Source: Candidatus Magasanikiibacteriota bacterium (GTDB lineage: Bacteria; Patescibacteriota; Patescibacteriia; Magasanikbacterales; UBA922). From it: a stretch of DNA of 64,000 nt. The DNA lies in NCBI GenBank assembly GCA_003510435.1, contig DOMK01000001.1:26604-90603 (forward strand), in the 5' to 3' direction. The notes below the pieces were generated by a model. It made no database searches. It was not told the origin of the DNA and worked only from the letters and a program-made list of their open reading frames with translations. Of the stretch, positions 12,433-29,196 are shown piece by piece (the stretch's first letter is position 1; each line of letters opens with the position of its first letter). The position numbers and the translations under genes were made by a program.

Positions 12433-13458
12433 TTATAAATTATTTTCTTGAATAGTTTCTAATAATTCTGGCATCATTTGATCTAGCCATTCATTATCTC
12501 CGGGCAAAAAGTCATATTTGTTGTGAGTAGTAGGATCAATCCACTTGGCATCCAGGACTTCGTTATTATTAATATTTAGTTTGCCACCAATTATTTTACA
12601 TATTATTGGCACAAGATAGACTTGATAACTAAAATTTGGAAACTTATGATTTTTGACTGCAATTTTTTGTAATTGTTTAATAATTTTTACTTTGTAGCCG
12701 ACTTCTTCTTTGGCTTCTTTTATAACCGTGCTTTCTACTGATTCGCCAAAATCACAAATGCCTCCTGGTACTTCCCACTTTTTGTGCGATTCTTTACGAT
12801 GGGGATCATTGCGAAGAGTAATTAATAATTTTTTGTCTTGAATTATCAAAGCACATGGTACAACAATATGCTTCGCGCCAAATTGATTTTGTAAATAATA
12901 TTTAATTTTTTGTAAAGCTTTACCACGATGGGAACAAGAATTTTTTTCTTGCATATCCATTTGCGCATAGGTTTTCTTTTTGGCATTGACATAAAAAATT
13001 GGATCATAAGCAAAACCATCTTTACCTGTTTCTTTTTCAGTGATTTTTCCTTCGGTTAGTCCACTAGCCAGATACACATCTTGATTGCTAGGATTATAAA
13101 GTGAACAAACAATGGCAAAAGTAGCAGTGCGATTTTTCTTTCCTTTCATTTTTTCCAAAATAATATTTCTTCTTTCAACATCATTTTTTCCAATGCGAGC
13201 GGAATATACACCCGGATAATTTTTTAAGGACTTAACAAAAATTCCCGAATCTTCACTTAGAGTAATCAGACCTGTTTTTTCACCATAATAATTAGCTTTG
13301 AGCATAGCATTTTGTTCTAGAGTAGTGCCATTTTCTTCTGGTTCTAGAATATTTTTATCCAAGTCTTTTAAACTTAAAAATTCAAATGGTAAATCACCAA
13401 GGAATTTTTTGATTTCTTTAAATTTTCCTTTATTGGTTGTGGCGATGAGAACTTTCAT
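12433..13458 (-). CDS. fusion protein: RdgB/Ham1 non-canonical NTP pyrophosphatase (N-terminal) + Nudix hydrolase (C-terminal)
   Basis: N-terminal KVLIATTNKGKFKEIKKFLG ... FAYDPIF (Ham1). C-terminal Nudix box GGICDFGESVESTVIKEAKEEVGY. Confidence 0.7.
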   Translation of the reverse strand: MKVLIATTNKGKFKEIKKFLGDLPFEFLSLKDLDKNILEPEENGTTLEQNAMLKANYYGEKTGLITLSEDSGIFVKSLKNYPGVYSARIGKNDVERRNIILEKMKGKKNRTATFAIVCSLYNPSNQDVYLASGLTEGKITEKETGKDGFAYDPIFYVNAKKKTYAQMDMQEKNSCSHRGKALQKIKYYLQNQFGAKHIVVPCALIIQDKKLLITLRNDPHRKESHKKWEVPGGICDFGESVESTVIKEAKEEVGYKVKIIKQLQKIAVKNHKFPNFSYQVYLVPIICKIIGGKLNINNNEVLDAKWIDPTTHNKYDFLPGDNEWLDQMMPELLETIQENNL

Positions 13459-13550
13459 ACACGGAAATAAGGAATTAAAGGATTATACGGATTTTTTATT
13501 ATCATATTTTTTCCGTGTGATCCTTTATCTCCGTATCTCAGTGTTATACC
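13458..13550. repeat. family-D hairpin element (ACACGGAAATAAGGA...GGATTATACGG...TCCGTGTGATCCTTTATCTCCGT)
   Basis: Internal inverted repeats. Paralogous copies at 13952-13990, 14394-14440 and 32293-32338. Confidence 0.5.
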
Positions 13551-13951
13551 AACCGTTCAATATATTTTCTAATTTTATTAGTCTTCAATTCCCCTTCTCT
13601 GTATGGGGTTAATTTTACTATTCGTGTGTTTAATCCAAATTTTGTTATAGCATTTTCTAGTTCATCAACATAAATTTTTTGATCATAACCAAGGGCAATT
13701 ACATCAGGTTTTTGATCCTGAATAACTTTATAAACATCAGTTTCATCACCTAACACTACCTCATCAATCAAATCAATATGTGTTAAAAATTCTAGACGTT
13801 CTTGTTCACTATGTAGAGATCCATATTCTTTTATTCTTTCTACATTAATATCGCGCGCTACGACAGCAATTAATTTGTCACCATATTCTCTAGCTTCCTT
13901 AAACATATGGATGTGACCACCATGGATAATATCAAATGTGCCAAAGATCAT
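13544..13951 (-). CDS. cytidylyltransferase-family nucleotidyltransferase (TagD/RfaE-domain-II-like)
   Basis: FGTFDIIHGGHIHMFKEAREYGDKLIAVVARD. Start moved to the Met of MIFGTFD because the upstream 20 codons are repeat-encoded. Confidence 0.55.
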   Translation of the reverse strand: MIFGTFDIIHGGHIHMFKEAREYGDKLIAVVARDINVERIKEYGSLHSEQERLEFLTHIDLIDEVVLGDETDVYKVIQDQKPDVIALGYDQKIYVDELENAITKFGLNTRIVKLTPYREGELKTNKIRKYIERLV

Positions 13952-13988
13952 AACACGGAGATGAGGAGAAGACGGATTATACGGAACA

Positions 13989-14393
13989 TTATTTTTTTTC
14001 ATATCGGTCATATTCTCTATAGTTTACAATTCTTTTTATTTCTAATTTTGGATTACCAAAGTTTATTAATAAACCAACTTCCAGCTTACTTGCCTTGAGA
14101 TATGAAACTGTTTGAGTCTGAAAGATTTTTGGTAATTCACCACTAACAGCTTTTAATTCTATTATTATTTTATTATTTACTAACAAGTCTACTCTAAAAG
14201 TTCCTATTAATTTATTTTTGTAATACACGTCATATTCAAATTCAGATTCTATATCAAATTTATTTTCTATTAAATCATTTATCATGGCTTGATGATAAAT
14301 ATACTCTTTAAAACCAGGCCCAAGTGTTTTGTGTATTTCTATCGCTATACCTATAATTTTTTGTGTTAGTTCCCACTCCTTTTTTATTATCAT
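13989..14393 (-). CDS. GxxExxY-family protein (family typically encoded inside rRNA intervening sequences)
   Basis: LGPGFKEYIYHQAM = G-x-x-E-x-x-Y signature; 134 aa. Bracketed by family-D inverted repeats. Confidence 0.65.
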   Translation of the reverse strand: MIIKKEWELTQKIIGIAIEIHKTLGPGFKEYIYHQAMINDLIENKFDIESEFEYDVYYKNKLIGTFRVDLLVNNKIIIELKAVSGELPKIFQTQTVSYLKASKLEVGLLINFGNPKLEIKRIVNYREYDRYEKK

Positions 14394-14440
14394 ATTTTTT
14401 CCGTGTAATTCTTTATTTCCGTGTCTCAGTGTTTATACCA
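14394..14440. repeat. family-D repeat arm (TTTTTTCCGTGTAATTCTTTATTTCCGTGTCTCAGTGTT)
   Basis: Inverted copy of ACACGGAGATGAGGAGAAGACGGATTATACGG at 13955-13988. Near-identical to 13498-13550. Confidence 0.5.
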
Positions 14441-16538
14441 AACCAATTTGTGGAGCAATTTTTTTTAATGCCTCAATAGCTAGTTGTAAAAATTCGTCCA
14501 AGCTCAAGCCAAGTTTTTCACATTCCATTATTATATCCCGATTACAGCCAGCGGCAAACTTTTTATCTTTAAATTTTTTCTTTAATGAGCTTAGTTCTAG
14601 ACTAGCAATTTTGTCTGGACGCATGCGAGCAGCTGCATAGACTAAACCGGTGGTGGTCTCAGCACAGGCCAAAGCATGTTCAATCATTTTAGTTCTAGTT
14701 TTATCTTGCAAATTTGCACAATTAAAACCATAGCCGTGAGAAACAACGACATTTATAAAATCATCAGCAAATCCAGCTTCCTTTAAAAGTTCTGGGGCTT
14801 TTGTCAAATGCTGAGTGGTATCGTTTTCTGTCAATTCCCAATCAATATCATGTAAAAGACCAAGCATTCCCCATGTTTCAACATCCTGACCTAGTTTTTC
14901 AGCAAGCTTTTTCATGATTGCTTCTGATTCTTGGTAATGGTTTAGATTGGCTTCTTTATTATTATATTTTTGTACTAATTGCCAGGCTTCTCCCCGATTC
15001 ATTGGTAGGGGTGATAAGCCTCCATCATTTTTTTGATTAGTGATATTAATCATTGGTTGATTGTTCTGTTCAACTGGTTTCATTAGCGGAAATAGCGTCA
15101 CTTCTCGTAAAGTGTGGGAACCAGTAATGAGCGCAGCAAAACGATCAATCCCAATGCCAGTGCCTGTGGCTGGAGGCATGCCATGTTCTAGAGCCTCGAC
15201 ATAGTCCCAATCGTTATTCATGGCCTCTTCATCACCTTCATCTTTATTTTTTACTTGTTCTTCAAATCTGGCTCGTTGATCAACTGGGTCATTTAATTCA
15301 GTATATGAATTGCTCAATTCAAAACCGTTAACAATTAGTTGAAACATCTCAGTATAGCGTGGATCTTCGGCTTTTTTTGCTAATGGTTTTAATTCAATTG
15401 GATAATTTAAAACAAAAGTTGGTTGAATTAATTTTGGTCGGGTTGATTGTTTATATAATTCGTCAATCAATTTACCACGTTCAGTAATATCTTCTGGATC
15501 ATAGCCCTTAGTTTTCATTTCTTTGGCTAGTGTTTCTACGTCAGTAAAATTATTAATATCAATACCAGAATGTTCCAAAACTGCATCATGAAAAGAAATT
15601 CGTTTGTATGGTCCGGCAAAATTAATTTTTTGATTATCAACTTCAACTTCCAATTTACCCACTGATTTTTCTACCACAAATGGAATTAATTCTTCATGCA
15701 TTTTCATATTATCTTCATAATCAGCATAAGCCCAATAATATTCTATCATGGTAAATTCTGGATTATGTTGGTGATCAACGCCTTCATTTCTAAAAGCCCG
15801 ACCCATTTCAAAGGTGCGTTCAAATCCTCCAACTAATAATCTTTTTTGCCATAGCTCGCCCATGCAAATACGCAAATGAACGGGTAAATTATAAGCATTG
15901 AGATGGGTGTCAAAAGTTTTGGCCATAGCGCCAGAAGCAATTGTTTCTAAGACTGGAGTTTCTACCTCAACAAAATCTTTGCTAAACATAAACTCGCGCA
16001 TATAACGCAAAATTCGTCCGCGAGCAAGAATTTTCTCTTTTTCTTCTGGATTAACAAGAAAATCAATATATCTTTTGCGATAGCGAGCTTCTTCATCTTG
16101 TAGACCATGAAATTTGTCTGGTAAAGGTAAGAGTGATTTGGCGAGCAATGTCCATTTTTTAACCAAAACAGATGGTTCACCTTTGTGAGTGGTAAATTTT
16201 TCGCCCTCTACAGAAATAATATCGCCAATATCAATTTTTTTGATAAATAATTTGTAATCAGTTTCATCAATTTCTCCTTGTTTAAAAGCGACTTGCATTT
16301 GGCCAGAATTGTCTTGCAAATGACAAAAAGTCAGTTTGCCCATGTCTCGTTTTGTCATGATTCTGCCAGCTGAAGCAATAGATTCACTTTCATTTTTTGT
16401 CAGAGCTTGTTTTAGGGTGTGCTCGCGTTTTACTCTGGCTGGATATGGGTTTATACCAACTTCTCTTAGTTCTTCTAGTTTTTTTAGACGAATGGCACGT
16501 TCGTCATTTATGTTTAATTCTGGAGAAATACTATCCAT
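14433..16538 (-). CDS. lysS: lysyl-tRNA synthetase (class II) fused to a ~210-aa C-terminal HD-superfamily phosphohydrolase-like domain
   Basis: LysS body through GIGIDRFAALITGSHTLREVTLFP. Then an extension with H...LLHDIDWE...VSHGYG...D (HD-domain metal-ligand pattern). Confidence 0.85.
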   Translation of the reverse strand: MDSISPELNINDERAIRLKKLEELREVGINPYPARVKREHTLKQALTKNESESIASAGRIMTKRDMGKLTFCHLQDNSGQMQVAFKQGEIDETDYKLFIKKIDIGDIISVEGEKFTTHKGEPSVLVKKWTLLAKSLLPLPDKFHGLQDEEARYRKRYIDFLVNPEEKEKILARGRILRYMREFMFSKDFVEVETPVLETIASGAMAKTFDTHLNAYNLPVHLRICMGELWQKRLLVGGFERTFEMGRAFRNEGVDHQHNPEFTMIEYYWAYADYEDNMKMHEELIPFVVEKSVGKLEVEVDNQKINFAGPYKRISFHDAVLEHSGIDINNFTDVETLAKEMKTKGYDPEDITERGKLIDELYKQSTRPKLIQPTFVLNYPIELKPLAKKAEDPRYTEMFQLIVNGFELSNSYTELNDPVDQRARFEEQVKNKDEGDEEAMNNDWDYVEALEHGMPPATGTGIGIDRFAALITGSHTLREVTLFPLMKPVEQNNQPMINITNQKNDGGLSPLPMNRGEAWQLVQKYNNKEANLNHYQESEAIMKKLAEKLGQDVETWGMLGLLHDIDWELTENDTTQHLTKAPELLKEAGFADDFINVVVSHGYGFNCANLQDKTRTKMIEHALACAETTTGLVYAAARMRPDKIASLELSSLKKKFKDKKFAAGCNRDIIMECEKLGLSLDEFLQLAIEALKKIAPQIGLV

Positions 16539-28260: not shown

Positions 28261-29196
28261 ATGAATTCCACGACTAAACTGCGGAGAATGACGATGAAGC
28301 GTTGCTTGTCAGAGCAGTTCAACATCCTGATGGATGAATTGGCCTCCATTGGTATGGCTGGCCTCTTCTGCCTCATCATCGGGATGGCCAAGAGCAAGTC
28401 GCAATTGGCCAGGTTCCACAACGAACTCAAGCCCAACCAGCGTCTCGTGCGTGGAGATTATATCATGCTCGAGGACTGGTGGGAGGCCTCGTATGAAAAG
28501 GCCAGAGGAGAACTCACTGAAGTGGCTAGAGAGAAGTTGCAAGAAGTGATTCTTCTCTCCTATCGCAACGAGCACAGTGCTGCGAATCTGAGCCACTACT
28601 ACGAACGGAAAATTAACGAGGAACGTTGGAGTAGAGAACATCCGAAAACCCCGCTTGCAACTTCTAGCGTCAACCTCGTGCTCTCTTGCCCCGAACGTGA
28701 CGGGCATGGCTACCACCACTTTCGCGCGTTCATGTTTAATGTAGAATTTGAAGTCAGTTGTACTTTTCTGGATAGCACACTACTAGTTCATATGTGCATC
28801 AAGAGAAATAAACTGACCGAAAATCTCGTACACAGGATTCTGACGTCCAAGCTGGTTAATGCCAGTTTCGGACATACAGGAGTGTATGTAAATAGTGGTG
28901 ATGAGCTGACCTTCAGGTTCGATCTCGGGGCTGATATAGGTAGGCGCTTGAAGGAGATGATCTCGGCATTTGATAAATCCGAGGGCGCTCACCGACGTGC
29001 TGACGTAGTGGCCATGGACACTTTTGCACATGAGGTTGGAAGAAACCTCATTGACGTCTGTGACCTTGAGCTGGATGGGCTCTACGCTGTAGTGCTGTTT
29101 GTCGCAGATGACCCACGTTGTCTGCAGTCAACGGTATTCGAGGATGGCGCACCGCACGCCAGGCATCGGGTCTGGTGCCATCGCACCAACGCCTAA
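28261..29196 (+). CDS. hypothetical protein (311 aa) encoded on a compositionally foreign GC-rich island; no recognisable domain
   Basis: Long ORF with GC-rich codon usage unlike all neighbours. Lies between a consensus promoter and two intrinsic terminators. Opposite-strand ORFs here look like GC-composition artefacts. Confidence 0.55.
   Translation: MNSTTKLRRMTMKRCLSEQFNILMDELASIGMAGLFCLIIGMAKSKSQLARFHNELKPNQRLVRGDYIMLEDWWEASYEKARGELTEVAREKLQEVILLSYRNEHSAANLSHYYERKINEERWSREHPKTPLATSSVNLVLSCPERDGHGYHHFRAFMFNVEFEVSCTFLDSTLLVHMCIKRNKLTENLVHRILTSKLVNASFGHTGVYVNSGDELTFRFDLGADIGRRLKEMISAFDKSEGAHRRADVVAMDTFAHEVGRNLIDVCDLELDGLYAVVLFVADDPRCLQSTVFEDGAPHARHRVWCHRTNA

What the first reader, a model, noticed from the sequence alone, without database searches (positions are those of the whole stretch)
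14433..15065. Lysyl-tRNA synthetase with a C-terminal HD-phosphohydrolase-like domain
About 210 extra residues follow the complete class II LysRS and carry an H...HD...H...D metal-ligand pattern. LysRS is the main cellular source of Ap4A, and HD-domain enzymes of the YqeK type hydrolyse Ap4A. A covalent synthetase-hydrolase pair could be a built-in control of alarmone output. This is inference from domain logic.
Basis: partly seen in the sequence, partly recalled or inferred. Interest (0 to 1): 0.55.

Follow-up and report, generated by a model that had tools for sequence, protein, structure and literature searches.

The report
Lysyl-tRNA synthetase fused to HD hydrolase
A groundwater candidate-phyla bacterium makes its lysyl-tRNA synthetase as one chain with an intact metal-dependent HD phosphohydrolase from an unstudied family whose genes sit next to, or are fused to, lysyl-tRNA synthetase genes of both structural classes in tiny bacteria, tiny archaea and some gut bacteria, so it is probably a dedicated partner enzyme, perhaps clearing the synthetase's nucleotide by-products such as Ap4A.

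Summary
Window 14433-16538 (-) is one 701-aa ORF. It holds a complete class II LysRS (res 1-489), a disordered 24-aa tether, and a 188-aa all-helical HD/HDIG domain. Both HD models score above their curated cut-offs.

The fusion is real. The identical protein occurs in three independent assemblies, and more than 40 other LysRS-HD fusions exist in CPR bacteria, a Lachnospiraceae MAG and cultured Atopobiaceae. The candidate metal ligands H534, H563-D564, H577, H601 and E627 are invariant. dN/dS against a free-standing homologue is about 0.08.

The new result is genomic coupling. In two independent samples, 14/28 and 32/48 loci carrying free-standing homologues have a LysRS gene just upstream. 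Usually it is class II, sometimes class I in the same acylphosphatase-LysRS-HD string.

I therefore read the domain as a catalytically competent di-metal phosphohydrolase dedicated to LysRS. Its most likely substrates are adenylylated LysRS by-products (Ap4A-type dinucleotides or lysyl-AMP; about 0.45). A tRNA(Lys)-directed role is the main rival. No description was found in the literature searched.

The parts
14433..16538 (-). Single 701-aa ORF encoding the LysRS-HD fusion protein, stop codon included.
   Evidence: ORF list. The identical protein is found in three independent assemblies. 27 full-length homologues share 44-77% identity.
16143..16370 (-). OB-fold anticodon-binding domain of class II LysRS (res 57-132).
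   Evidence: PF01336, E 6.5e-14. Modelled as beta-strands with pLDDT above 90.
15081..16097 (-). Class II (D/K/N) aminoacylation core (res 148-486). It carries motif 2 RNEG (250-253) and motif 3 G459/G461/R466.
   Evidence: PF00152, E 4.9e-77. NF001756 596 bits and TIGR00499 535 bits, both above cut-off. Invariant columns in alignment A3.
15000..15071 (-). Flexible tether (res 490-513, EQNNQPMINITNQKNDGGLSPLPM).
   Evidence: pLDDT is below 50 for residues 490-506 in the full-length model, and pTM is 0.65 against 0.88 for the domain alone. Length and sequence are unconserved among fusions. In L007 this position holds a stop codon, 4 nt and a start codon.
14436..14999 (-). HD/HDIG metal-dependent phosphohydrolase domain (res 514-701), all alpha-helical.
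14847..14852 (-). Codons of the His563-Asp564 catalytic dyad. The other candidate ligands are H534 (14937-14939), H577 (14808-14810), H601 (14736-14738) and E627 (14658-14660).
   Evidence: These residues are invariant in A1 (41 sequences) and A3 (27 fusions). The pattern parallels the dinuclear H..HD..H..H..D motif described in PMC8177086.
14568..14579 (-). Invariant basic motif K654-K655-x-K657 (KKKFKDKKF), a candidate phosphate-binding patch.
   Evidence: Invariant columns. This motif was one of the two peptide patterns that retrieved the family. Its role is inferred.

Best explanation
SHOWN. The gene encodes a bona fide class II lysyl-tRNA synthetase. Its C-terminus is tethered by a disordered linker of about 24 residues to an intact, purifying-selected HD domain. 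The domain belongs to an uncharacterised HDIG clade (141 clusters at 50% identity with E<=1e-30; 3,696 at E<=1e-3). That clade is genomically coupled to LysRS. It is fused to LysRS many times, with fusion and fission events interspersed on the domain tree. Otherwise it is often encoded directly downstream of lysS (class II), or of lysK (class I), in DPANN archaea and CPR bacteria.

INFERRED. Six invariant candidate ligands (H534, H563, D564, H577, H601, E627) would form a di-metal centre like those of YqeK, PgpH and HD-GYP enzymes. The domain would then work as a phosphohydrolase on an adenylylated product of the LysRS active site. The most likely substrates are Ap4A, Ap3A and other Ap4N dinucleotides that arise when ATP attacks enzyme-bound lysyl-AMP, or released lysyl-AMP itself. 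Tethering or co-translation would place the hydrolase where the by-product is made. The result would be built-in clean-up or alarmone limitation, analogous to YqeK fused to NadD. The module is accessory: close relatives lack it or carry a different domain (DUF2000) in the same slot.
For: Domain identity and integrity.

The fusion is real and recurrent. The identical protein appears in 3 assemblies. There are 27 full-length fusions in Magasanikbacteria, Moranbacteria and Parcubacteria. 16 of the best 150 family representatives are LysRS2-HD. Fusions also occur in Peregrinibacteria, Parcubacteria and cultured Parafannyhessea umbonata and in a Lachnospiraceae MAG, L077. At least 14 fused/free transitions are needed on a neighbour-joining tree.

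The split form exists: lysS stop, 4 nt, then the HD start codon in L007.

Gene linkage. 14 of 28 DPANN/CPR genome loci have a LysRS gene within two genes of the HD gene. 32 of 48 metagenome loci with at least 1.8 kb upstream have LysRS upstream on the same strand, and 21 of those are directly adjacent.

Small-molecule nucleotide chemistry is favoured by several points. The ligand pattern is dinuclear-type (PMC8177086). The only sequence hits among solved structures are YqeK Ap4A hydrolases. There is a PAS-GGDEF-HD fusion and a LysRS-HAD-HD fusion. The family is acidic, with median pI 5.5. Acylphosphatase is conserved in the same gene string.

Precedent: the NadD-YqeK fusion hydrolyses erroneous dinucleotide products of its partner adenylyltransferase (PMC9426524). 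From established knowledge, class II LysRS is a major Ap4A source (reviewed in PMC10148737).
Against: There is no biochemical evidence.

The domain is not a YqeK family member. No YqeK model is hit, and the residue equivalent to the catalytic Lys62 is Trp567.

The nearest named HMMs are RNA-linked or unknown: the HD domain fused to Trm56, RNase Y and TIGR00295.

GlyRS-beta's tRNA-binding HD domain ties for the top structural hit.

The HD gene also follows class I LysRS in L025, L034, L143 and L170, and lies two genes from it in L033. Class I LysRS needs tRNA to activate lysine and is not an established Ap4A producer (my knowledge, not tested here).

Other fusions are to ribosomal protein S3 and to FtsY.

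In about 55 Clostridia loci only one shows LysRS linkage.

A 96%-identical LysRS in a syntenic relative lacks the domain altogether, so it is dispensable.
Confidence: 0.45

Rival explanations
1. The HD domain acts on RNA, specifically tRNA(Lys) or the translation machinery. It could be an end-healing phosphoesterase (2',3'-cyclic phosphodiesterase or 3'-phosphatase, like the HD domain of bacterial CCA-adding enzymes) or an RNase Y-like nuclease that keeps tRNA(Lys) chargeable.
For: The domain is linked to both LysRS classes, whose obvious common factors are tRNA(Lys) and lysine. It is fused to ribosomal protein S3 inside the ribosomal operon (L009, L107) and to FtsY (L017, P0241, L097, L134, L150). 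The nearest NCBIfam neighbours are the Trm56-fused HD domain (40/41 members) and RNase Y (40/41). The GlyRS-beta HD domain, which contacts the acceptor arm, is a co-top fold hit (PMC8464048). There is a Barstar-HD fusion, and NYN or PIN genes are sometimes inserted nearby.
Against: The family is acidic, with median pI 5.5. None of the best 150 representatives carries a detected fusion partner other than LysRS that is an aaRS, a CCA-adding enzyme or an RNA ligase. Similarity to RNase Y and Trm56-HD is far below their cut-offs and limited to the HDIG core. The GGDEF and HAD fusions point to small nucleotides. Ribosomal-operon embedding is also typical of housekeeping nucleotide enzymes.
Confidence: 0.2
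2. The appended domain is one of several interchangeable quality-control modules on LysRS, alongside DUF2000 (PTH2-like) and B3_4. It would act on mis-acylated or aberrant lysyl-tRNA or misactivated adenylates, that is, editing in cis or in trans rather than Ap4A control.
For: In identical Magasanikbacteria synteny the slot after the LysRS core holds HD fused (window), HD separate (L007), DUF2000 fused (L091) or nothing (L092, L004). 15 LysRS-DUF2000 proteins are among the top 120 LysRS hits. DUF2000 matches PDB 2gax. From memory, its fold resembles peptidyl-tRNA hydrolase 2. In Nanoarchaeota L020, LysRS carries a PheRS-type B3_4 domain and is followed by the HD gene.
Against: HD enzymes are phosphoester/anhydride hydrolases, oxygenases or hydratases (PMC8177086). 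No aminoacyl-ester deacylase is known in the superfamily. L020 has both B3_4 and HD, so they are not simple alternatives. The DUF2000 function is itself unknown.
Confidence: 0.1
3. The domain is a general housekeeping nucleotide phosphohydrolase (for example a nucleotidase, dNTPase or NTP pyrophosphohydrolase) with no LysRS-specific chemistry. It would merely be co-expressed with highly expressed translation genes and occasionally fused by stop-codon loss in compact genomes.
For: There are many free-standing copies with unrelated neighbours, especially about 55 Clostridia loci with no conserved context. Fusion partners are heterogeneous: S3, FtsY, AMMECR1, a beta-propeller and Barstar. The domain has been lost from a near-identical relative.
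Against: Linkage is specific to LysRS among all aaRS and is far above chance: 14/28 and 32/48 loci against roughly 4 in 1,000 expected for any given gene lying within two genes (my rough estimate, assuming a genome of about 1,000 genes). It spans two domains of life and both LysRS classes within the same gene string, which looks like in situ displacement. Independent fusions occur in CPR, Clostridia and Actinobacteria.
Confidence: 0.12
4. The domain is a catalytically inert tRNA-binding appended domain, like the HD domain of the bacterial GlyRS beta subunit.
Confidence: 0.04

Closest known systems
YqeK (COG1713) HD-domain symmetrical Ap4A hydrolase, including NadD-YqeK fusions
   Different: No YqeK HMM is hit by any of 41 members. 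Sequence similarity is confined to the first 50 or so residues at E 0.02-0.04. YqeK's Lys62 of HDYAK (PMC11857287) is Trp in the invariant HDIDW here. The spacing of the later ligands differs (13/24/26 against 32/26/18) and the last ligand is Glu. The partner is LysRS, not NadD. The taxa are CPR, DPANN, Clostridia and Atopobiaceae. Activity is untested.
HD domain of the bacterial heterotetrameric GlyRS beta subunit
   Different: The GlyRS-beta domain lacks the catalytic His-Asp dyad and serves tRNA acceptor-arm binding or allostery (PMC8464048). It is internal to a separate subunit and universal in that enzyme type. Here the dyad and all other ligands are invariant. The domain is a C-terminal, flexibly tethered, dispensable add-on that also exists free-standing.
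HDIG-class relatives: TIGR00295 family, the HD domain fused to archaeal Trm56 (PRK12703), and the RNase Y HD domain
   Same: These are the closest named sequence models (41/41, 40/41 and 40/41 family members hit them; best E 1e-7 to 3e-6). They share the HDIG core.
   Different: Scores are about 20 bits against curated cut-offs of 172-454 bits. Only the H...HD...H core aligns. There is no KH domain, transmembrane segment or methyltransferase domain. None of these relatives is known to be linked to LysRS.
Other LysRS fusions and LysRS-associated nucleotide hydrolases (LysX = MprF-LysRS; HINT proteins acting on LysRS-made lysyl-AMP)
   Same: LysRS is used as a module in a bifunctional protein (the LysX model NF002821 aligns to the LysRS part). 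From my memory of the literature, a small nucleotide hydrolase consumes a LysRS-generated adenylate (this activity is mentioned in PMC3130732 and PMC5382946, found).
   Different: LysX fuses a lipid lysyl-transferase at the N-terminus. HINT is a HIT-fold enzyme, not an HD enzyme, and is not fused to LysRS.

Membership tests
Class II lysyl-tRNA synthetase (LysS; TIGR00499 / NF001756) | A full-length match to the curated LysRS models above cut-off. | tested here: met
   NF001756 596.4 bits (cut-off 468) and TIGR00499 534.9 bits (cut-off 427.6), covering residues 10-489.
Class II lysyl-tRNA synthetase (LysS; TIGR00499 / NF001756) | An N-terminal OB anticodon-binding domain plus a class II core with motif 2 (fRNEg) and motif 3 (GxGxGxxR). 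| tested here: met
   PF01336 covers 57-132 and PF00152 covers 148-486. R250-N251-E252-G253, G459, G461 and R466 are invariant in 27 fusions.
Class II lysyl-tRNA synthetase (LysS; TIGR00499 / NF001756) | Lysylation of tRNA(Lys). | not testable with these tools
   This needs an aminoacylation assay. No tRNA gene lies in the window.
HD superfamily (PF01966) / HDIG (TIGR00277) | An HMM match above the curated thresholds. | tested here: met
   PF01966 26.7 bits (gathering 22) and TIGR00277 39.3 bits (cut-off 27.6) on the 210-aa fragment. All 41 of 41 homologues hit HDIG.
HD superfamily (PF01966) / HDIG (TIGR00277) | Conserved H...HD...D metal ligands on an all-alpha fold. | tested here: met
YqeK / COG1713 Ap4A hydrolase | A match to the family's curated sequence model. 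| tested here: not met
   No YqeK equivalog model appears among the NCBIfam hits at E<=1 for any of 41 members. Only the NadD-YqeK fusion model PRK07152 is hit, in 5 of 41 members at E>=0.011. PDB YqeK chains match at E 0.02-0.08 over about 50 residues.
YqeK / COG1713 Ap4A hydrolase | The catalytic Lys three residues after the HD dyad (HDYAK; Lys62 in S. pyogenes YqeK, PMC11857287). | tested here: not met
   The motif here is the invariant HDIDW, so the equivalent position is Trp567.
YqeK / COG1713 Ap4A hydrolase | A six-ligand dinuclear motif H..HD..H..H..D (H21, H50, D51, H83, H109, D127 in BH1327; PMC8177086). | tested here: inconclusive
   An analogous invariant set exists (H534, H563, D564, H577, H601, E627). 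Its spacing is 29/1/13/24/26 against 29/1/32/26/18, and the last residue is Glu. Residue-by-residue structural equivalence could not be checked. The attempt to obtain full-length YqeK sequences failed.
YqeK / COG1713 Ap4A hydrolase | Clustering or fusion with nadD. | tested here: not met
   The partner is lysS or lysK. The downstream PF01467 nucleotidyltransferase (13544-14011) is RfaE-domain-II/TagD-like rather than NadD, and it is present whether or not the HD domain is.
YqeK / COG1713 Ap4A hydrolase | Symmetrical hydrolysis of Ap4A to 2 ADP. | not testable with these tools
   This needs an enzyme assay.
GlyRS beta-subunit type HD domain (non-catalytic tRNA-binding module) | A degenerate active site, with the His-Asp dyad replaced (Ser393-Lys394 in E. 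coli; PMC8464048). | tested here: not met
RNase Y | A full-length model match (N-terminal transmembrane segment, KH domain and HD domain). | tested here: not met
   TIGR03319 scores 20 bits against a cut-off of 454, over the HD core only.

The most novel reading that the evidence does not exclude
This HD clade is a dedicated partner enzyme of lysyl-tRNA synthetase of either class. It would form a conserved 'LysRS by-product disposal' module, often together with an acylphosphatase, across DPANN archaea, CPR bacteria and some Firmicutes and Actinobacteria. It would then be a third, previously unrecognised family of Ap4A / lysyl-adenylate hydrolases beside ApaH and YqeK. It would also be the first such candidate for archaea and CPR, and the first aaRS with a built-in hydrolase that destroys its own alarmone output.
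Probability: 0.35. Interest if true: 0.75.

Novelty: new variant of a known kind. Interest (0 to 1): 0.6.

Why it matters
Four points follow if the reading is right.

1. It would assign a testable function to an uncharacterised HD family with thousands of members, including members in cultured gut and oral bacteria.

2. It would identify how ultra-small CPR and DPANN cells might dispose of Ap4A-type dinucleotides or reactive lysyl-adenylate. Whether these lineages lack the known Ap4A hydrolases was not tested here.

3. It would add a new class of appended catalytic domain to aminoacyl-tRNA synthetases: a hydrolase aimed at the synthetase's side products rather than at mischarged tRNA.

4. The coupling to both LysRS classes, in the same gene string, is an unusually clean comparative-genomics handle on what the two unrelated LysRS types have in common beyond charging tRNA.

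Parafannyhessea umbonata carries the fusion and is cultivable, so the hypothesis can be tested genetically.

Tried and rejected
- **Artefact (frameshift or misassembly).** Rejected. The identical ORF occurs in 3 independent assemblies, and dozens of diverged full-length fusions exist.
- **YqeK membership.** Rejected (the Lys-to-Trp difference).
- **Sequence search of solved structures.** Only marginal N-terminal YqeK hits came back.
- **Last large protein search.** I spent it on a 63-aa YqeK fragment to build a YqeK profile. It returned only truncated or frameshifted fragments of at most 106 aa, so no profile-profile alignment of the C-terminal ligands was possible.
- **Defence-system involvement.** There were no PADLOC hits for the HD domain or its neighbours.
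- **RNA features.** There were no Rfam hits at gathering score and no tRNA genes in the whole window.
- **Internal translation start.** A GGAGG lies 16 nt before Met515, but that Met is not conserved (it aligns to Ile8 of the free L007 protein). I did not treat it as a separate start.
- **Intervening genes.** Genes between lysS and the HD gene in some loci are PIN modules, GNAT, PHP, NYN and VTT. I read these as insertions into an ancestral adjacency, not as conserved partners.
- **Literature.** Searches for LysRS-HD fusions, COG2316, DUF2000 and class I LysRS with Ap4A found nothing relevant. Minazzato et al. 2020 was not held.
Full report
**What is in the sequence.** Window 14433..16538 on the minus strand is one uninterrupted 701-aa ORF. 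Residues 10-489 are a complete class II lysyl-tRNA synthetase. NF001756 scores 596 bits against a cut-off of 468, and TIGR00499 scores 535 against 428. The OB anticodon-binding domain lies at 57-132 and the D/K/N catalytic core at 148-486. Motif 2 (RNEG, 250-253) and motif 3 (G459, G461, R466) are invariant among relatives. The finding's coordinates, 14433-15065, correspond to residues 492-701 plus the stop codon. This fragment scores above the curated thresholds of both Pfam HD (26.7 bits against 22) and NCBIfam HDIG (39.3 against 27.6).

**The fusion is real and under selection.**
- The identical 701-aa protein is encoded on contigs from three independent samples: Logan SRR6487867, JGI 3300009031 and Logan SRR2177986.
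- The best full-length relatives are annotated Candidatus Magasanikbacteria (CPR/Patescibacteria). The gene order is mreC-mreD-PBP2-greA-lysS...serS, and the samples are groundwater metagenomes.
- Twenty-seven other proteins of 691-723 aa align end to end at 44-77% identity.
- Across them, H534, E537, H563, D564, D566, W567, H577, H601, G604, R615, E627, T628, T630, G631, K654, K655, K657, F661, R667 and E672 are invariant. The linker varies freely in length and sequence.
- Against the 82%-identical free-standing homologue in L007, dN/dS is about 0.08, with dS near saturation.
- AlphaFold models give an all-helical HD domain (pLDDT 91.4, pTM 0.88). In the full-length model both halves are well folded, residues 490-506 have pLDDT below 50, and overall pTM is 0.65. 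This indicates a flexible tether rather than a fixed interface in the monomer.

**Which HD family.** The 210-residue fragment has thousands of homologues. Nearly all are free-standing proteins of 181-200 aa, and the closest (58-82% identity) come from DPANN archaea and CPR bacteria. An exhaustive profile search finds 3,696 clusters (at 50% identity) with E<=1e-3 and 141 with E<=1e-30. GTDB genomes place further members at 38-48% identity in Lachnospiraceae, Oscillospiraceae, Christensenellaceae and other Clostridia, including cultured strains.

No curated family below the generic HDIG level claims this clade.
- All 41 sampled members hit HDIG.
- They weakly hit TIGR00295 (41/41), the HD domain fused to archaeal Trm56 (40/41) and RNase Y (40/41). 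All of these scores lie far below the family cut-offs.
- No YqeK equivalog model appears at E<=1.
- Against solved structures, only YqeK-type chains are detectable by sequence (2ogi at E 0.022, 8jja at E 0.042). The match is restricted to the first 50 or so residues around H...HD.

The invariant residues give an H...HD...H...H...E pattern. The H-to-HD spacing (29 residues) is the same as in YqeK, but the later spacing differs and the terminal residue is Glu. By the criteria in PMC8177086 this suggests a di-metal site. YqeK's catalytically important Lys62 in HDYAK (PMC11857287) is replaced here by an invariant Trp in HDIDW. I conclude the domain is a catalytically competent HD phosphohydrolase of an uncharacterised clade. 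It is not a YqeK family member. It is also not a degenerate tRNA-binding HD domain of the GlyRS-beta kind, which has lost the His-Asp dyad (PMC8464048).

**Evolutionary behaviour of the fusion.** Within one conserved Magasanikbacteria gene order, the position immediately after the LysRS core is variable.
- HD fused: the window.
- HD as a separate gene: L007, where lysS ends with TAA and the HD start codon follows 4 nt later.
- A different appended domain, DUF2000: L091, and 15 of the top 120 LysRS hits.
- Nothing: L092, and L004, whose LysRS is 96% identical to the window's.

The module is therefore accessory and is gained or lost quickly.

Beyond this clade, 16 of the best 150 family representatives are LysRS2-HD fusions or fragments of them. 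Named examples come from Parcubacteria, Peregrinibacteria and cultured Parafannyhessea umbonata (Atopobiaceae; WP_078687421.1, 752 aa). All are annotated simply as lysine--tRNA ligase. A Lachnospiraceae MAG has its own 715-aa fusion (L077). On a neighbour-joining tree of 274 HD domains, at least 14 changes between fused and free states are needed.

**Gene-neighbourhood result, the main new evidence.**
- Among 28 DPANN/CPR loci from GTDB genomes with a free-standing HD gene, a class II lysS lies immediately upstream in 7, often overlapping the HD start. It lies one gene away in 3 and two genes downstream in 1.
- A class I lysK (PF01921) lies immediately upstream with a 4-nt overlap in 2 Woesearchaeota, and two genes upstream in a Patescibacterium. 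The total is 14 of 28.
- In an independent metagenome sample, 32 of 48 loci with at least 1.8 kb of upstream sequence have LysRS upstream on the same strand (31 class II, 1 class I), and 21 are directly adjacent. Two more short contigs show class I lysK directly upstream.
- Intervening genes, where present, are PIN modules, GNAT, PHP, NYN or VTT, which I read as insertions.
- An acylphosphatase gene recurs two to four genes upstream. The string acylphosphatase-LysRS-HD exists with either class II (L021, L020, L016, L011) or class I LysRS (L034, L025). This looks like in situ non-orthologous displacement that preserved the arrangement.
- In about 55 Clostridia loci the context is not conserved, apart from L077.

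**Other fusion partners of this HD clade.**
- Ribosomal protein S3 inside the ribosomal operon (L009, a continuous 418-aa ORF that the gene caller truncated; probably also L107).
- FtsY (L017 and P0241; adjacency in L097, L134 and L150).
- PAS-GGDEF, AMMECR1, a beta-propeller and Barstar.
- A tripartite LysRS-HAD-HD protein.

**Interpretation.** The shown facts are an intact di-metal-type HD hydrolase, tethered or co-encoded with LysRS far more often than chance allows, across two domains of life and both LysRS classes. The substrate is inferred.

I favour an adenylylated product of the LysRS active site, meaning Ap4A-type dinucleotides or released lysyl-AMP. The reasons are as follows.
- The linkage is specific to LysRS among all synthetases, and class II LysRS is the classic Ap4A source (PMC10148737).
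- The closest solved relatives by sequence are Ap4A hydrolases.
- Family members are fused to a dinucleotide cyclase (GGDEF) and to a HAD phosphatase.
- The family is acidic, with median pI 5.5.
- A second anhydride hydrolase, acylphosphatase, travels with the pair.
- NadD-YqeK is a worked precedent of an adenylyltransferase fused to an HD diphosphatase that removes its erroneous dinucleotide products (PMC9426524).

Against this reading stand several points.
- The domain fails the YqeK membership tests.
- It is adjacent to class I LysRS, which activates lysine only with tRNA bound and is not an established Ap4A producer (my knowledge).
- It is fused to S3 and FtsY.
- Its nearest named HMMs are RNA-related.

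These keep a tRNA(Lys)- or translation-directed role alive. The alternation with DUF2000 and the co-occurrence with B3_4 suggest a broader 'LysRS quality-control add-on' theme. An inert tRNA-binding role is unlikely given the invariant ligands.

**Comparison with the known, and novelty.**
- Functionally, the nearest analogue is YqeK, especially NadD-YqeK.
- Architecturally, the nearest is the HD domain of GlyRS beta.
- By sequence, the nearest are the TIGR00295, Trm56-HD and RNase Y HDIG cores.
- The domain is a member of none of these families.

The fusion proteins are already in public databases, including RefSeq and UniProt entries from a cultured actinobacterium. They are labelled only as lysine--tRNA ligase. 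Searches of the available literature found no description of a LysRS-HD fusion or of this HD clade's linkage to LysRS. I classify it as a new variant of a known kind: an aminoacyl-tRNA synthetase with an appended, apparently active HD phosphohydrolase.

**Verdict.** Its interpretation is partly supported. The synthetase-hydrolase logic is strengthened by comparative genomics, the YqeK assignment is not supported, and Ap4A hydrolysis remains a hypothesis (about 0.45 when lysyl-AMP is included). Interest is 0.6.

Noticed in passing
L091 4001-5947 (also P0147, P0162, P0167, P0171, P0174, P0181, P0192, P0197, P0201, P0204, P0205, P0220, P0223, P0232, P0235): Sister Magasanikbacteria carry a different C-terminal add-on on LysRS in the same syntenic slot: DUF2000 (PF09391), giving proteins of about 635-670 aa. 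The domain matches PDB 2gax (Atu0240). Its function is unknown.
   Followed up: partly
L020 2792-4999: A Nanoarchaeota class II LysRS (735 aa) carries a C-terminal PheRS-type B3_4 domain (PF03483, E 6e-23). The free-standing HD gene follows it directly.
   Followed up: partly
L009 4452-5708 (Woesearchaeota B3_Woes); probably also L107 1264-2496: Ribosomal protein S3 (KH_2 plus S3_C) runs into the same HD domain as one 418-aa ORF inside the L22-S3-L29 ribosomal operon. The public gene call starts internally (235 aa) and misses the S3 part.
   Followed up: partly
L017 4671-6506; P0241; adjacency in L097, L134 and L150: In Woesearchaeota the HD domain is fused upstream of the SRP receptor FtsY (SRP54_N plus the SRP54 GTPase). 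In several metagenome contigs the HD gene lies about 120 nt upstream of ftsY.
   Followed up: partly
L011, L016, L020, L021, L025, L029, L034 and about 24 metagenome loci (e.g. L105, L147, L161, L166): An acylphosphatase gene (about 91 aa) recurs two to four genes upstream of the HD gene, just before lysS or lysK. This forms a conserved acylphosphatase-LysRS-HD string in DPANN archaea.
   Followed up: partly
P0270, P0304, P0387, P0377, P0305: The same HD clade has other fusion partners: PAS-PAS-GGDEF-HD (656 aa), LysRS-HAD-HD (918 aa), AMMECR1-HD, Barstar-HD and beta-propeller-HD.
   Followed up: no
window 12433-13458 (-): A RdgB/HAM1 non-canonical NTP pyrophosphatase is fused to a MutT-like NUDIX domain (341 aa). 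The fusion is conserved in the same position in relatives (L004, L091, L092). It is a second nucleotide-sanitising fusion in this small gene cluster.
   Followed up: partly
window 13989-14393 (-): A GxxExxY / PDDEXK_3 protein gene (TIGR04256, E 2.5e-38) sits between lysS-HD and the PF01467 nucleotidyltransferase gene, overlapping the latter by 23 nt. It is present in L004 but absent from L007, L091 and L092, so it looks like a recent insertion.
   Followed up: partly
window 28261-29196 (+): A locally GC-rich segment (0.44 against about 0.32 for the window) holds a 311-aa plus-strand ORF among minus-strand genes. It has no Rfam hit and no PADLOC hit. It may be foreign DNA.
   Followed up: partly
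window 1-64000: There is no tRNA gene and no Rfam family match at gathering score anywhere in the 64 kb. GC skew is negative almost throughout, and nearly all genes examined lie on the minus strand.
   Followed up: no
L105 3341-3999, L144 3347-3983, L151 2591-3216: PIN-domain genes, each with a small upstream ORF that may form a toxin-antitoxin pair, are inserted between lysS and the HD gene in several DPANN contigs.
   Followed up: no
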